From Candidatus Bathyarchaeota archaeon (GTDB lineage: Archaea > Thermoproteota > Bathyarchaeia > 40CM-2-53-6), in the NCBI GenBank assembly GCA_963706285.1, contig CAVPLU010000006.1, forward strand, positions 30,439 through 94,438: a stretch of DNA of 64,000 bases, in the 5' to 3' direction. This document shows positions 39,909-60,483 of the stretch, piece by piece. The notes under the pieces are model-generated. The model was not told the origin of the DNA, did not search any database, and saw only the letters and a list, made by a program, of their open reading frames with translations. Position numbers and translations under genes: made by a program. Each line of letters begins with the position of its first letter. Within the stretch, counting starts at the first letter, position 1.

Positions 39909-40061
39909 TGCGGGGGGTGGGATTCGAACCCACGAAGGCCTACGCCACAGGATCTCTTATCCCAAGGCGGATCTTAAGTGTGGCACGACTCGAAGGGTCG
40001 TCCTGCCCCTTTGACCTGAATCCCGCCCTTAATGCCGCGCACGGGTCTCGGGAACCCCCGC
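39909..40061 (-). tRNA. tRNA-Leu(UAA) with three BHB introns (15/16: 40046-40020; 30/31: 40001-39980; 37/38: 39972-39954)
   Basis: Spliced: GCGGGGGTTCCCGAG|TCAGGTCAAAGGGGCAGG|ACTTAAG|ATCCTGTGGCGTAGGCCTTCGTGGGTTCGAATCCCACCCCCCGCA; complete cloverleaf with a long variable arm. Confidence 0.92.
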
Positions 40062-40150
40062 TCGATACCTGCTAAGCCACGGTTTGGCTAAAAACTTGTG
40101 ATGCAGAATGCTTGCCTGTGAGAGTGGTTCACACAACACATGATCGAGCA

Positions 40151-40160
40151 AACTATATGA
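40151..40160 (+). promoter_or_regulatory. Putative TATA box of tRNA-Arg(CCU)
   Basis: 'AACTATATGA' about 30 nt upstream of the tRNA 5' end at 40186. Confidence 0.45.
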
Positions 40161-40185
40161 TGGCATGAAGGGTACTCTCGCCGGA

Positions 40186-40355
40186 GGGCCCGTGGCGCAG
40201 TCTCGCAGGTTGACGCCTGTGAGGCGAAATACGGACAGCGCGGCAGATAGGTCCCTTGGGCTAGCCGAGCCTCCTAAGTGAACCGCGGAATCAGCTGTAG
40301 AGTGCGCCGAAAACGCACGCAAAAGTCCGGGGTTCAAATCCCCGCGGGCCCGCCA
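40186..40355 (+). tRNA. tRNA-Arg(CCU) with four BHB introns (15/16: 40201-40229; 30/31: 40247-40269; 37/38: 40277-40292; 45/46: 40301-40324); CCA encoded
   Basis: Spliced: GGGCCCGTGGCGCAG|TACGGACAGCGCGGCAG|CCTCCTA|AGCTGTAG|GTCCGGGGTTCAAATCCCCGCGGGCCCGCCA; all four stems pair and A20 is present. Confidence 0.9.
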
Positions 40356-40448
40356 AACATCCTAGTCAGGCCGTACTATATAGACACAGAAAACCTATGT
40401 CTATGTCACATCTCCTTCCCGCGTCGGAATCCATTGAGGATGGCATAG

Positions 40449-42575
40449 TTGGCAACTACGCAGTTCAAGTATGCGCTTGGCAGGGTAGCAAACGGCTACA
40501 ACAACAGAACATTATACATCGACGTTTCAAACATGCGGATTGTCGAGAAGCCAGCTACCGAAAACATGAAAGAGAAATTCATAGGCGGCCGCGGATTCGA
40601 TCTTTTTCTCCTCTGGCAGGCCCTACCGAAAGATCGTATCATTGGTTGGGATGACCCTGAAAACGAGATATGTGTTGCTTGCGGCCCCTTGGGGGGGACG
40701 CCAGGATACCCGGGCAGCGGGAAAAGCATTGCAGTTACGATATCTCCACTGACCGGGTCTGTTGTCGATTCGAATGTCGGTGGATACTTTGGGCCTTATC
40801 TGAAGTTTGCCGGTTGGGATGCGCTTGAGATTCAAGGAAAATCCAATTTCGAAGCAGTTATTCTCATAGACGGAGACAATGGCATAGTCCAGATAGAGGA
40901 TGGATCCGGACTTCCTAACCAAACGCACTCTCTAACAGATACCCTGGCTAGGAGATTCGGAGGTGACAAGCCGAATAGCATTTCCGTCATCTCGTCAGGC
41001 CCAGCAGCTGAGCACACTCTCATGGGGTCTCTCAATTCTTCATGGTACGACGCAGCACGTAAGACTCACAGGATCAAACAGGCGGGAAGAGGCGGAATCG
41101 GAACAGTACTTCGCAATAAGAGAATAAAGGCAATAGTAGTGAAGTATTCTGGTGGAATAACCGCCGAGTCAAACGGTCCGGCAGATCCAGAACTAGTAAA
41201 GAAGACAGGGACTGCTCTCGCAAAGGAAATACGAATGCTTGATCCCAAACAGAATGAAATGTCAATCGTCGGGACTACTCATCTCGTTACCATAATGAAC
41301 GAATTCGATCTTCTCCCAGTAAACAATTTCCGATTTGGAAGCAACGTCGAAGCAGAAAGAATTGGCAGAGAAGTCTACAGAAAGAAGTTCGACAAGGGAT
41401 TCGACGGGTGCTGGATGGGGTGCGCTTTGTCATGCGCCCATGTTATCAAAGGATTCCGGCTCAGGACAGGTCCACATCGTGGACAAGAAGTCTACGTGGA
41501 CGGTCCTGAATACGAAACCATTGCTGGAGTCGGCAGCAACTGCGGTATCTTTGACCCCGACTACATCACCGAGATGAACTTCTACTGTGACACGTATGGC
41601 CTGGATACGATCTCCATTGGCACAAGTATCGCCTTTGCAATGGAGTGTTACGAAATGGGGCTAATTGACAAGAATGTGACCGGTGGTTTGGATCTCAAGT
41701 TCGGCAACAAGGAGGCGGCTCTTGAACTGGTCCATCAGATGGCCAGCGGGAACGGCTTCGGCGTTGTGGTTGGACAAGGGATAAGGCGAATGAAGCGACT
41801 TTTTGCTGAAAAGTACGGAGCTGATCCAAAGATCCTAAACGACATTGGCATGGAGGCCAAGGGATTGGAGTTCTCTGAGTATGTGACCAAGGAATCGTTG
41901 GCACAGCAAGGCGGATACGGACTCGCCTTGAAAGGCCCTCAACACGACGAGGCTTGGTTGATATTCCTTGACATGGTGCATAAACTGATGCCGACATTTG
42001 AACAGAAAGCCGAGAACTTACATTGGTTCCCGATGTTCCGCACTTGGTTCGGCCTGAACGGCCTATGCAAACTGCCATGGAATGACGTTATTCCGGAGAA
42101 CAATAGCAAGACAAAGGAGCCGGCAAAGGTAATGGCTCATGTTGAGGACTATGCCACTTTCTTCTCGGCAGTAACCGGAAGAAAAGTCACACCTGACGAT
42201 ATTATCCCAATGAGCGAACGCGTATACAATTTCCAACGAATCTTCAACCTGAGAATGGGTTACGGCACACGAGAGCACGACGCCATACCCTATCGAGCTG
42301 TGGGGCCCGTAACAAAGGAAGAATATGAAAGTCGTCAAGAACGCTACGATACCCAACTTAAGGAAAAAGTGGGCTTTGATCCAGCAGGTCGGAGTACTAA
42401 CGAAAAAATGGAAGCACTCCGGAGATATCGCGAAGCAGAATACGAGAGGTTGAAGGACGCGGTCTACGAGAGAAGAGGGTGGAACAAGAACGGCGTGCCA
42501 ACTCTGGAAAAGGCCAAGGCCCTTGGCATAGACTACCCGGACGTAGTGGAGCTATTAGAGAAGCATGGTGCCTAG
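40449..42575 (+). CDS. aor: Tungsten-containing aldehyde:ferredoxin oxidoreductase family protein
   Basis: 'FIGGRG', 'SPLTG..DSNVGG', 'AGRGG.G', 'GCWMGCALSC', 'GPEYET', 'DTYGLDTIS'. Confidence 0.92.
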   Translation: MATTQFKYALGRVANGYNNRTLYIDVSNMRIVEKPATENMKEKFIGGRGFDLFLLWQALPKDRIIGWDDPENEICVACGPLGGTPGYPGSGKSIAVTISPLTGSVVDSNVGGYFGPYLKFAGWDALEIQGKSNFEAVILIDGDNGIVQIEDGSGLPNQTHSLTDTLARRFGGDKPNSISVISSGPAAEHTLMGSLNSSWYDAARKTHRIKQAGRGGIGTVLRNKRIKAIVVKYSGGITAESNGPADPELVKKTGTALAKEIRMLDPKQNEMSIVGTTHLVTIMNEFDLLPVNNFRFGSNVEAERIGREVYRKKFDKGFDGCWMGCALSCAHVIKGFRLRTGPHRGQEVYVDGPEYETIAGVGSNCGIFDPDYITEMNFYCDTYGLDTISIGTSIAFAMECYEMGLIDKNVTGGLDLKFGNKEAALELVHQMASGNGFGVVVGQGIRRMKRLFAEKYGADPKILNDIGMEAKGLEFSEYVTKESLAQQGGYGLALKGPQHDEAWLIFLDMVHKLMPTFEQKAENLHWFPMFRTWFGLNGLCKLPWNDVIPENNSKTKEPAKVMAHVEDYATFFSAVTGRKVTPDDIIPMSERVYNFQRIFNLRMGYGTREHDAIPYRAVGPVTKEEYESRQERYDTQLKEKVGFDPAGRSTNEKMEALRRYREAEYERLKDAVYERRGWNKNGVPTLEKAKALGIDYPDVVELLEKHGA

Positions 42576-44734: not shown

Positions 44735-45259
44735 CTATACTTTGAGGAAGTCAAGCGAATAGTAGACAATGTCAGTTCGTCTGTCAACTACTGCCAGAAT
44801 CAGGTCTTTCTTGTCCCTCGAAGCTCTCTTCAGCAGCTTTCGGAGGGTCTTAAGGTCCGCCTCTCCGCCCTCGTAGACAATGTAAACGTATCTCCGCATC
44901 GGTCCTTTTCCATGAATCTCAAAATCAAAAACTGGGGATTCTCTAACGATGTATCCTCGGTCCCGAAGGTCGCGGTATACTAGATATTTCACCCAGAGAG
45001 CGGGCTCTTTCGTAGCTGCCGACTTCACCAGTTTCTCAAAGGTAATGCTCTCTTTTTTCTTCCCTTCGACGGTGATTCTGCCTTTCTCAAGAAGATAGAA
45101 TGCCTCATGGGGTGTCAGAACGAGCTTCTTTCCTCGAAGCTCTCCGAAGCCACGCTCACGCATCTCCATTAGTTCCGATGCTCTCGGGAAAAAGACTTCG
45201 TTCGTTCCGAGGAATGCTTCGTAGACTTGGAATGGCTTCTCAGCCTCTGGCTCACTCAC
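44735..45259 (-). CDS. endA: tRNA splicing endonuclease, structural (non-catalytic, beta-type) subunit
   Basis: 'EAFYL', 'YLVYRDLRDRGY', 'LILAVVD....IVYY'; the catalytic 'KYG' Tyr and the His are absent. Confidence 0.82.
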   Translation of the reverse strand: MSEPEAEKPFQVYEAFLGTNEVFFPRASELMEMRERGFGELRGKKLVLTPHEAFYLLEKGRITVEGKKKESITFEKLVKSAATKEPALWVKYLVYRDLRDRGYIVRESPVFDFEIHGKGPMRRYVYIVYEGGEADLKTLRKLLKRASRDKKDLILAVVDRRTDIVYYSLDFLKV

Positions 45260-60330: not shown

Positions 60331-60483
60331 GGGCCCGTAGTCTAGGCCATCTTGTCATCTACAATTGATGATGTGATGGGGACAACCAGGATTAGGACAC
60401 AGTCGCACGCTTCGGTGTAGGCCTTCGGAACAAGCAGTGAGGAAAGCCTGGGATCCAGGGTTCGAATCCCTGCGGGCCCGCCA
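60331..60483 (+). tRNA. tRNA-Arg(UCG) with three BHB introns (15/16: 60346-60385; 29/30: 60403-60420; 37/38: 60429-60444); CCA encoded
   Basis: Spliced: GGGCCCGTAGTCTAG|CCAGGATTAGGACACAG|GCCTTCGG|AGCCTGGGATCCAGGGTTCGAATCCCTGCGGGCCCGCCA; TATA-like 'TTCTTATAG' about 30 nt upstream. Confidence 0.92.

What the first reader, a model, noticed from the sequence alone, without database searches (positions are those of the whole stretch)
40186..40355. tRNA-Arg(CCU) interrupted by four BHB introns
Seen: a 170-nt gene with 5 exons (15, 17, 7, 8 and 28+CCA nt) and 4 hairpin introns (29, 23, 16 and 24 nt) at 15/16, 30/31, 37/38 and 45/46. Each has 3-nt bulges around a 4-nt helix (GCGC/GCGA, CGGC/GCCG, CTCC/GGAA, CTGT/GCAA; three carry one terminal mismatch, i.e. 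relaxed motifs). The same cut rule at all eight bulges yields a complete cloverleaf with a CCU anticodon and A20. More than half the gene is intron. As far as I recall, the classical maximum per archaeal tRNA is three; I cannot search to confirm novelty.
Basis: partly seen in the sequence, partly recalled or inferred. Interest (0 to 1): 0.92.

Follow-up and report, generated by a model that had tools for sequence, protein, structure and literature searches.

The report
Four-intron tRNA-Arg gene in Bathyarchaeia
This is a real arginine tRNA gene of an uncultured Bathyarchaeia archaeon that is broken by four short hairpin introns, one more than the textbook maximum for archaea, although a 2026 preprint already reports up to five in Asgard archaea.

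Summary
Window 40186-40355 (+) splits into exons of 15/17/7/8/31 nt and inserts of 29/23/16/24 nt. Joining the exons gives a 78-nt product that ARAGORN calls tRNA-Arg(CCU). The unspliced gene is invisible to ARAGORN and Rfam.

It is not chance: 0 of 300 shuffles reach the real parse score. Five other same-genus genomes carry the same four-insert gene, with exons nearly invariant and flanks diverged. Orthologues elsewhere carry subsets of the four inserts, so each insert is precisely absent somewhere.

All four sites fit bulge-helix-bulge geometry. The central helix has 4/4 pairs at 30/31 and 3/4 pairs at 15/16, 37/38 and 45/46. The genome encodes a catalytic EndA with the broad-specificity loop, a non-catalytic paralogue, and RtcB.

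No RNA evidence of splicing was obtained.

On novelty, reviews give three as the maximum (PMC8450103, PMC4033280). An October 2026 preprint reports up to five per gene in Asgard archaea. This is therefore a new member of a known kind, apparently the first in Bathyarchaeia, in a genome where no credible intron-free tRNA gene was found.

The parts
40150..40159 (+). Conserved TATA-box-like promoter element (AAACTATATG), 27-36 nt upstream of the tRNA 5' end
   Evidence: Invariant in 6 of 6 same-genus orthologous loci, while the sequence on both sides varies (alignment A4). Its role as a promoter is inferred from position only.
40186..40200 (+). Exon 1 (tRNA positions 1-15: acceptor 5' strand, U8, G9, D-stem 5' strand, A14, G15)
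   Evidence: 0 of 15 columns vary among six orthologues.
40201..40229 (+). Intron 1, 29 nt, at 15/16 (D-loop). Central helix has 3 of 4 pairs (G.A at the outer end), bulges are AG|U and AA|U, inner hairpin is 8 bp.
   Evidence: One inner-helix pair changes on both sides (U-A to C-G) in one genome. Absent in the orthologues L007-L010, L014 and L019. Present with different sequence and length (25 and 39 nt) in L040 and L042.
40230..40246 (+). Exon 2 (positions 16-30: rest of the D-loop, D-stem 3' strand, G26, anticodon stem 27-30)
   Evidence: 2 of 17 columns vary, both in the D-loop.
40247..40269 (+). Intron 2, 23 nt, at 30/31 (anticodon stem). Central helix CGGC/GCCG has 4 of 4 pairs, bulges are AG|A and AG|C, inner helix is 3+2 bp.
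   Evidence: The central and inner helices are recovered by unconstrained MFE folding of the whole precursor. The central helix has 4 of 4 pairs in 11 of 11 orthologues that carry this intron, with intron lengths of 13-24 nt. Absent in L019, L040 and L042.
40270..40276 (+). Exon 3 (positions 31-37, including anticodon C34 C35 U36)
   Evidence: 0 of 7 columns vary.
40277..40292 (+). Intron 3, 16 nt, at the canonical 37/38 site. Central helix has 3 of 4 pairs (C32.A), bulges are UA|A and UC|A, inner helix is 3 bp.
   Evidence: The middle inner-helix pair is C-G in 2 genomes, U-A in 2, U-G in 1 and unpaired in 1. Absent in L042. Not recovered by MFE folding.
40293..40300 (+). Exon 4 (positions 38-45)
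   Evidence: 0 of 8 columns vary.
40301..40324 (+). Intron 4, 24 nt, at 45/46 (variable loop). Central helix has 3 of 4 pairs including one U.G, with C40.A unpaired. Bulges are AG|A and AA|G, inner helix is 5 bp.
   Evidence: The central and inner helices are recovered by MFE folding. In the 7 orthologues outside the genus the central helix has 4 of 4 pairs. Absent in L042.
40325..40355 (+). Exon 5 (positions 46-73 plus encoded CCA at 40353-40355)
   Evidence: 1 of 31 columns varies (CCA reads CTA in one genome).
44735..45259 (-). EndA paralogue (174 aa), probably the non-catalytic beta subunit of the splicing endonuclease that would cut this pre-tRNA
   Evidence: PF02778 plus PF01974. Aligned to the catalytic paralogue, it has H in place of the catalytic Y and R in place of the catalytic H. 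The subunit role is inferred.

Best explanation
Window 40186-40355 is a functional, single-copy tRNA-Arg(CCU) gene of a Bathyarchaeia archaeon.

It is transcribed from a conserved TATA-like box about 30 nt upstream as a precursor of roughly 170 nt. Four short hairpin introns sit in that precursor, in the D-loop (15/16), the anticodon stem (30/31), the anticodon loop (37/38) and the variable loop (45/46).

Each intron carries, 3-6 nt before its 3' end, four bases complementary to the four exon bases that lie 3-6 nt before its 5' end. Pairing these gives a 4-bp helix flanked by two 3-nt bulges, closed on the intron side by the intron's own hairpin. This is the HBh' form of the bulge-helix-bulge motif.

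The heterotetramer-type splicing endonuclease cuts after the second base of each bulge. It would consist of a catalytic alpha subunit with the crenarchaeal broad-specificity loop and a non-catalytic beta subunit encoded 4.4 kb downstream. RtcB then joins the exons.

The exon halves of the helices of introns 1, 2 and 4 are D-stem and anticodon-stem bases. The cloverleaf core therefore cannot form until those introns are removed. I infer that introns 1, 2 and 4 are cut first as free-standing hairpins. Intron 3 would be cut last, once the anticodon stem can supply its outer helix.

Shown: the sequence anatomy, conservation, precise presence and absence of each intron among orthologues, and the presence of the enzymes. 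Inferred: transcription, cleavage, ligation and the order of splicing.
For: (1) The joined exons give a cloverleaf that ARAGORN calls tRNA-Arg(cct). The unspliced gene gives nothing.

(2) 0 of 300 shuffles reach the real parse score.

(3) Full-length orthologues of 89-95% identity occur in 5 of 9 other same-genus genomes. Variable columns number 3 of 78 in exons, 25 of 93 in introns and 43 of 48 in flanks.

(4) Orthologues outside the genus carry subsets of the introns and give nearly the same mature sequence.
- 30/31 + 37/38 + 45/46 in G016, G023, G036, G028 and G022.
- 37/38 + 45/46 in G024.
- 15/16 + 37/38 + 45/46 in L040.
- 15/16 alone in L042.

(5) Across 45 intron instances in 14 genomes, the central helix has at least 3 of 4 pairs in 43. 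It has 4 of 4 in all 11 instances at 30/31, although the intron interiors are unrelated.

(6) The named structure is paired in 90.5% of cells, against 31-46% when partners are slid by 1-3 columns. Two inner-helix pairs change on both sides.

(7) MFE folding of the whole precursor recovers the central and inner helices of introns 2 and 4 and the hairpin of intron 1.

(8) The genome has two EndA paralogues.
- The 186-aa one matches crenarchaeal catalytic subunits (2cv8_A at 4e-40, 3p1z_B at 2e-37).
- It keeps Y, H and K.
- Its K39 and K41 align with K44 and R46 of chain 3p1z_B, the numbers PMC3241643 gives for the A. pernix broad-specificity loop; that the chain is that protein is my assumption.
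- The 174-aa one lacks the Y and the H.

(9) RtcB is present.

(10) An invariant AAACTATATG box lies 27-36 nt upstream in 6 of 6 orthologues.

(11) No second credible Arg(CCU) gene was found in the assembly.

(12) In Cyanidioschyzon merolae, RT-PCR showed that non-anticodon introns of a three-intron tRNA are removed before the 37/38 intron (PMC3728597, passage seen). This is an analogy for the proposed order.
Against: No RNA evidence was obtained. The only RNA-library contig that lay on the gene itself is a 98-nt piece over 40147-40244. It keeps intron 1, begins upstream of the putative TATA box and differs at 9 places, so it may be DNA or a relative's precursor.

Three of the four central helices have only 3 of 4 pairs. 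[quoted passage not shown] Here the boundaries are fixed independently by orthologues.

No outer exon helix of at least 2 bp exists for introns 1, 2 and 4 (my reading of the sequence).

The structure with all four motifs formed evaluates at -56.1 kcal/mol (-60.6 when the rest is allowed to fold), against an MFE of -80.1. Intron 3's motif is never recovered by MFE folding, even when it is the only intron left.

Covariation within the genus is thin. Two pairs change on both sides, a count that 35 of 500 column shuffles also reach.

Four of nine same-genus genomes (completeness 77-95%) show no orthologue. A tRNA-Arg(UCU) gene exists and might read AGG by wobble, so the gene may not be indispensable.

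The assembly is 89% complete with 7.5% contamination.
Confidence: 0.85

Rival explanations
1. The gene is real but not all four inserts are removed by ordinary EndA cleavage. At least one insert is retained, is removed by another route, or makes the gene a poorly functional relic. The likeliest candidates are the weak 37/38 motif and the D-loop insert. AGG codons would then be read by tRNA-Arg(UCU).
For: Three of the four central helices have one mismatch. Intron 3's motif is not found by MFE folding in any of the nine intron-retaining precursor or intermediate forms tried. No spliced RNA was seen. No orthologue was found in 4 of 9 same-genus genomes. tRNA-Arg(UCU) is present.
Against: Exons are nearly invariant (3 of 78 variable columns) while flanks are 43 of 48 variable, which argues for selection on the mature product. 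Every insert is precisely absent in some orthologue with the same mature sequence. Retaining any insert would leave a D-loop, anticodon arm or variable loop 16-29 nt too long. The endonuclease has the loop that confers cleavage of non-canonical and relaxed motifs in A. pernix (PMC3241643).
Confidence: 0.1
2. The four-insert reading is a chance parse or an assembly artefact of a metagenome bin.
For: My intron-aware search does yield spurious low-scoring parses elsewhere in the genome. Four of 22 ARAGORN-accepted parses were dropped as implausible. ARAGORN's intron mode gave a false Arg(cct) on another contig. Contamination is 7.5%.
Against: 0 of 300 shuffles reach the real score. The same gene, with the same neighbouring divergent tRNA-Leu gene, occurs in six separately assembled genomes. 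The conservation gradient runs exon > intron > flank.
Confidence: 0.02
3. It is one piece of a split or permuted tRNA gene whose halves are joined in trans, rather than a collinear intron-containing gene.
For: Split and permuted tRNA genes use the same BHB machinery in other archaea (PMC4033280, passages seen).
Against: All five exons lie in order on one strand within 170 nt. Both acceptor strands are present and fully complementary.
Confidence: 0.01

Closest known systems
Multi-intron tRNA genes of Thermoproteales (for example Pyrobaculum islandicum tRNA-Pro(UGG) with introns at 25/26, 37/38 and 56/57; passage of PMC4090602 seen)
   Same: [quoted passage not shown] The endonuclease is of the (alpha-beta)2 type with the broad-specificity loop. 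Intron positions 30/31 and 45/46 are on the published list of non-canonical sites.
   Different: Here there are four introns, where the reviews give a maximum of three (PMC8450103; PMC4033280). The host is Bathyarchaeia, not Thermoproteales. I saw no sequence similarity between introns of different tRNA genes in this genome, so there is no sign of the intron transposition described for Thermoproteales.
[quoted passage not shown]
   Same: About two intervening sequences per gene, nearly every gene interrupted, and many D-arm insertions that standard tools miss. Up to five per gene are reported there, so four is not unprecedented.
   Different: A different phylum-level lineage (Bathyarchaeia, TACK side). 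The Asgard figures are a computational census whose per-gene tables are in supplements that I could not open. Here each of the four introns is backed by an orthologue that lacks it.
Nuclear tRNA genes of the red alga Cyanidioschyzon merolae with up to three BHB introns (PMC3728597, passages seen)
   Same: Multiple BHB introns in the D-arm, at 37/38 and elsewhere. Splicing order was shown by RT-PCR, with the 37/38 intron removed after the others. This is the order I infer here.
   Different: A eukaryote, a maximum of three introns, and some genes that are also permuted.
Split and tri-split tRNA genes (Nanoarchaeum, Caldivirga; PMC4033280)
   Same: The same BHB cleavage and ligation chemistry joins the pieces.
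   Different: Those pieces are separate genes joined in trans. Here all exons are collinear in one 170-nt gene.

Membership tests
Archaeal BHB (EndA-spliced) tRNA intron | [quoted passage not shown] The helix is formed by the four exon bases before the 5' bulge and the four intron bases before the 3' bulge (definition as quoted in the preprint's methods). | tested here: met
   The geometry is met at all four sites. The helix is complete (4 of 4 pairs) only for intron 2. Introns 1, 3 and 4 have 3 of 4 pairs, which is the 'relaxed' class.
Archaeal BHB (EndA-spliced) tRNA intron | At least one flanking helix (h or h') of 2 or more contiguous pairs | tested here: met
   The inner helix h' has 8, 3, 3 and 5 contiguous pairs for introns 1-4 by my reading of the sequence; the script counts 9 for intron 1 by adding a U.G pair. 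An outer helix h is available only for intron 3, as the anticodon stem after introns 2 and 4 are gone (my reading of the sequence).
Archaeal BHB (EndA-spliced) tRNA intron | Removal at the bulge cut sites restores a canonical tRNA | tested here: met
   ARAGORN calls the joined exons tRNA-Arg(cct), 78 nt. Orthologues lacking each intron have the same junction sequence.
Archaeal BHB (EndA-spliced) tRNA intron | Cleavage by EndA and ligation by RtcB, observed as spliced RNA or circular introns | not testable with these tools
   The one RNA-library contig that lay on the gene itself is unspliced and may be DNA.
Archaeal BHB (EndA-spliced) tRNA intron | The host encodes an endonuclease type able to cut non-canonical or relaxed motifs | tested here: met
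   Two EndA paralogues are present. The catalytic one keeps the Y-H-K triad and has lysines aligned to K44/R46 of chain 3p1z_B, taken to be the A. pernix enzyme (PMC3241643). The other lacks the Y and the H. Activity was not tested.
tRNA-Arg(CCU), elongator class I tRNA | Cloverleaf with 7/4/5/5-bp stems, a 7-nt anticodon loop with U33 and anticodon CCU, and a T-loop of the TTCAAAT type | tested here: met
   ARAGORN drawing of the joined exons.
Split / permuted tRNA gene | Exons encoded at separate loci or in permuted order | tested here: not met
   Five collinear exons lie within 170 nt.

The most novel reading that the evidence does not exclude
This Bathyarchaeia order may be a third, independent lineage of extreme tRNA-gene interruption, beside Thermoproteales and some Asgard families.

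- In this genome I found no credible intron-free tRNA gene.
- I counted about two introns per gene.
- One gene has four introns. It appears to have been assembled stepwise from an order-wide three-intron state by adding a D-loop intron at 15/16, a site occupied in 8 of the 18 genes I could parse.

If so, tRNA counts used to grade Bathyarchaeia genome bins are systematically too low. The four-intron Arg(CCU) gene would be the most interrupted tRNA gene known outside Asgard archaea.
Probability: 0.55. Interest if true: 0.6.

Novelty: new member of a known kind. Interest (0 to 1): 0.5.

Why it matters
The gene shows that the three-intron ceiling given for archaeal tRNA genes in reviews is also exceeded outside Asgard archaea. 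The host is a widespread sediment and soil lineage, Bathyarchaeia.

The presence and absence pattern among relatives gives a natural series for studying how BHB introns are gained. The states are one intron, two, three in two different combinations, and four. That question is described as still open in the 2026 preprint.

The practical point may matter more. ARAGORN and the Rfam tRNA model found none of the three tRNA genes in this 64-kb window. Only 5-30 Rfam tRNA hits were found per genome in 41 related genomes. tRNA-based quality grades and codon-usage inferences for these genome bins are therefore likely to be biased.

The precursor is also a demanding natural substrate for testing how far the crenarchaeal-type endonuclease tolerates mismatched central helices and missing outer helices.

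Tried and rejected
- Standard detectors on the unspliced DNA found nothing at this locus. ARAGORN found 0 genes in the window. ARAGORN intron mode found nothing on 40100-40450. Rfam at gathering threshold gave 0 matches in the window.

- RNA evidence. One search of sequencing runs listed 7 runs, only one of which held any words of the stretch (share 0.07). Four runs were laid, and two of them laid nothing.
  - X1 gave a 98-nt contig over 40147-40244 with 9 differences and intron 1 retained.
  - X1 also gave a 253-nt contig that shares only exon 5.
  - X2 gave a contig sharing only exon 5.
  - No joints were reported. This says nothing either way about splicing or expression.

- Thermodynamic folding. 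The MFE recovers the motifs of introns 2 and 4 and the hairpin of intron 1, but not intron 3. The all-four-motif structure is 20-24 kcal/mol above the MFE. MFE also misfolds the mature product by extending the acceptor stem, so I give these energies little weight.

- Intron copying between genes. The best local alignment score between an Arg(CCU) intron and any of the other 33 parsed introns was 10, against a background of several 9s. I rejected this as evidence of transposition.

- Genome-wide census. The first script timed out. The rerun covered 140 of 151 anchor/start pairs. It gave 22 ARAGORN-accepted parses, of which I dropped four as implausible (scores 12.2-18.0, gene lengths 211-327 nt, introns up to 100 nt).
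  - The census requires an uninterrupted T arm and acceptor stem and a BHB-like motif, so it is motif-dependent and incomplete.
  - It missed 8 of the 16 Rfam hits above cut-off.
  - The variable arms of class II tRNAs can be mis-read as introns.

- ARAGORN's intron mode called an 'Arg(cct)' on contig C13. It has a 106-nt 'intron', a 3-nt D-loop and a poor T arm, and I rejected it.

- No Arg(CCU) orthologue was found in G001, G002, G005 or G006. Their completeness is 77-95%, so absence is not shown.

- Literature. Searches found no paper in the held library that describes tRNA introns in Bathyarchaeia; the only papers holding both words were the 2 and the 3, of which I opened only PMC7714728 (Bathyarchaeota named once, in a footnote) and the published version of the Asgard preprint (searched for intron terms only). 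Supplements are closed. Supplementary Data 4 of PMC11291895 and Tables S3/S4 of the 2026 preprint may list four- and five-intron genes. GtRNAdb and SPLITSdb could not be consulted.

Full report
**What is there.** The exons are 15, 17, 7, 8 and 31 nt. The inserts are 29, 23, 16 and 24 nt, together 92 of 170 nt. Joining the exons by coordinates in a script gives a 78-nt product. ARAGORN calls it tRNA-Arg(cct) with full-length stems and an encoded CCA. The intact DNA is invisible to the usual tools. ARAGORN finds no tRNA in the whole 64-kb window. Rfam at gathering threshold finds nothing. ARAGORN's intron mode finds nothing on 40100-40450.

**Splice-site anatomy.** I applied the published rule, quoted in the methods of bioRxiv 10.64898/2026.10.13.758758. 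The four exon bases before the 5' bulge pair with the four intron bases before the 3' bulge. Each site then has two 3-nt bulges around a 4-position helix.

| Intron | Site | Central helix | Pairs | Inner hairpin |
|---|---|---|---|---|
| 1 | 15/16 | GCGC/GCGA | 3 of 4 (G.A) | 8 bp |
| 2 | 30/31 | CGGC/GCCG | 4 of 4 | 3+2 bp |
| 3 | 37/38 | CTCC/GGAA | 3 of 4 (C.A) | 3 bp |
| 4 | 45/46 | CTGT/GCAA | 3 of 4 (C.A, plus one U.G) | 5 bp |

An outer exon helix of at least 2 bp is available only to intron 3. It is the anticodon stem, and it can form only after introns 2 and 4 are gone (my reading of the sequence). By the Marck and Grosjean classes as that preprint summarises them, intron 2 is a canonical HBh' and the other three are relaxed.

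**More than chance.** I wrote an intron-aware search. It anchors on an intact T arm and acceptor stem, allows BHB-like jumps, and checks the D and anticodon arms. I then kept the acceptor stem and T arm and dinucleotide-shuffled the inner 134 nt 300 times. Of these, 101 gave any parse, the best scored 18.9, and none reached 20.7.

**Relatives in the same genus.** A search of 40 related genomes found full-length copies of 89-95% identity in 5 of the 9 other genomes of the same genus.
- In the six-way alignment (A1), 3 of 78 exon columns vary, 25 of 93 intron columns and 43 of 48 flank columns. Fisher's test gives p = 4e-5 for exon versus intron and 4e-13 for intron versus flank. The genomes are kin, so these p-values overstate.
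- On my named structure, 90.5% of 294 cells are standard pairs, against 31-46% when partners are slid by 1-3 columns.
- Two inner-helix pairs change on both sides. In 500 column shuffles, 35 reach that count, so within-genus covariation is only weak support.
- An invariant AAACTATATG box lies 27-36 nt upstream in all six, flanked by variable sequence. I take it as the TATA box from its position alone.

**Orthologues that lack each intron.** This is the strongest evidence. Spliced alignment of the mature sequence to more distant loci gave these intron sets.
- 30/31 + 37/38 + 45/46 in G016 and G023 (another genus), G022, and G036 and G028 (another family).
- 37/38 + 45/46 in G024. In G022 and G024 the last intron sits at 43/44 by the motif rule.
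- 15/16 + 37/38 + 45/46 in L040.
- 15/16 alone in L042.

Every one of the four inserts is therefore precisely missing from some orthologue whose mature sequence is nearly the same. All four together occur only in this genus. Across 45 intron instances in 14 genomes, the central helix has at least 3 of 4 pairs in 43. It has 4 of 4 in all 11 instances at 30/31 and in 7 of 13 at 45/46. The intron interiors and lengths (13-39 nt) are unrelated. A scan of one genome per prokaryotic species, for exon 1, a gap and exon 2, found 7 records. Five are the same-genus genomes, titled Candidatus Bathyarchaeia or Bathyarchaeota archaeon. The other two are L040 and L042.

**Splicing machinery.** The genome has two EndA paralogues, each with PF02778 plus PF01974.
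- The 186-aa one matches PDB chains 2cv8_A (4e-40) and 3p1z_B (2e-37). It keeps the Y, H and K of the active site. Its K39 and K41 align with residues K44 and R46 of chain 3p1z_B.
- PMC3241643 (abstract and passages) shows that this loop and its K44 confer cleavage of non-canonical and relaxed motifs in Aeropyrum pernix. That 3p1z is that enzyme is my assumption: 186 is both the length of chain 3p1z_B and the last residue of the alpha chains modelled in that paper.
- The 174-aa paralogue lies in the window at 44735-45259 (-). It has H in place of the Y and R in place of the H, as expected of a structural beta subunit.
- RtcB is present, though it is read in two adjoining frames.

**Folding and order of splicing.** Unconstrained folding of the 170-nt precursor gives -80.1 kcal/mol (z = -3.4). 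It recovers the central and inner helices of introns 2 and 4 and the hairpin of intron 1, but not intron 3. The structure with all four motifs formed is -56.1 kcal/mol, or -60.6 with the rest free. Intron 3's motif is not recovered even when it is the only intron left. The mature product is also misfolded by MFE, so I weigh these numbers lightly.

The exon halves of helices 1, 2 and 4 are D-stem and anticodon-stem bases. I therefore infer that these three introns are cut first as free hairpins and that intron 3 is cut last. RT-PCR in Cyanidioschyzon merolae showed the same order for a three-intron tRNA (PMC3728597, passage).

**Context in the genome.**
- Rfam's tRNA model gives 16 hits above cut-off in the 2.13-Mb assembly. 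The 13 full-length ones are 88-129 nt long.
- ARAGORN without introns gives 3 hits. Two of them overlap genes that carry an intron by my parse, and the third lies at a contig edge.
- My incomplete, motif-dependent census ran 140 of 151 jobs and gave 22 accepted parses, of which 4 were dropped. It leaves 18 credible genes with 37 introns. None is intron-free, and only Arg(CCU) has four.
- Site 15/16 is occupied in 8 of the 18 genes.
- No second credible Arg(CCU) gene was found. ARAGORN's other 'Arg(cct)' is a false parse.
- In the 41 related genomes, Rfam tRNA hits number 5-30 per genome, and 5-18 in this family. A full archaeal set is, from my recollection, about 46. This is a rough proxy, because completeness varies and the tool applied stricter filters.

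**RNA evidence.** None. One search listed 7 runs, only one of which held any words of the stretch. Of the four runs laid, two gave nothing. The only contig lying on the gene itself is unspliced, starts upstream of the TATA-like box and has 9 differences. No joints were reported.

**Literature.**
- Reviews state a maximum of three introns per archaeal tRNA gene: PMC8450103 ('can contain up to three', passage) and PMC4033280 ('a maximum of three introns', passage).
- PMC11291895 reports 228 introns in three Asgard genomes. The per-gene data are in a supplement that I could not open (passages).
- The preprint 10.64898/2026.10.13.758758 (outline, passages and section 2.1) reports 2.2 intervening sequences per gene and 'up to five in a single gene' in three Asgard families. 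It says D-arm insertions are the ones tRNAscan-SE misses. It warns that the relaxed motif class is common by chance.
- Seven searches turned up no description of tRNA introns in Bathyarchaeia in the held library; of the few papers holding both words I opened only two.

**Verdict.** Splicing itself remains inferred. It is a new member of a known kind. Four introns exceed the figure given for Crenarchaeota but not the five now reported for Asgard archaea. The wider point is that a Bathyarchaeia order appears to be another heavily interrupted lineage whose tRNA genes standard tools largely miss. That point deserves a proper census.

Noticed in passing
window 39909-40061 (-): A divergently transcribed tRNA-Leu(UAA) gene lies 124 nt upstream of the Arg gene. 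It has three predicted BHB introns: 27 nt at 15/16, 22 nt at about 30/31 and 19 nt at 37/38, all with 4 of 4 central pairs. It was missed by ARAGORN and by Rfam at gathering threshold. The Leu-Arg pair and a second conserved A/T-rich box are kept in all six same-genus genomes.
   Followed up: partly
window 60331-60480 (+): A tRNA-Arg(UCG) gene with three predicted introns of 40, 18 and 16 nt. A second copy on contig C1 has nearly identical second and third introns but a quite different 40-nt first intron.
   Followed up: partly
L007, L010, L014, L019 (Arg(CCU) orthologues in genera g2 and g4): The anticodon loop reads C at position 33 where U is almost universal. The 37/38 central helix then has only 2 of 4 pairs in two of these four genomes (G016, G023; 3 of 4 in G022 and G024). 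It could be a tolerated C33, an RNA-level change or a different splice register.
   Followed up: no
G000:C4:105729-107043 (-) (loci L023/L024): The RtcB ligase gene matches its Pfam model in two adjoining reading frames (model positions 1-243 and 236-426). This suggests a frameshift, an assembly error or a split gene.
   Followed up: no
whole genome G000 and 40 relatives: The Rfam tRNA model finds only 5-30 tRNA hits per genome in 41 genomes of this order. ARAGORN without introns finds 3 in G000. tRNA counts for these genome bins are probably badly underestimated by standard tools.
   Followed up: partly
G000 census: Position 15/16 in the D-loop holds an intron in 8 of the 18 parsed tRNA genes: Arg CCU, Arg UCG (two copies), Leu CAG, Leu UAA, Leu UAG, Pro UGG and Ser GCU. 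The intron sequences are unrelated. This looks like a preferred insertion or retention site rather than copying.
   Followed up: partly
window 40029-40337 (-): A 102-aa open frame (TTG start) overlaps the tRNA gene on the opposite strand. I took it as spurious, given the tRNA conservation pattern, and did not test it.
   Followed up: no
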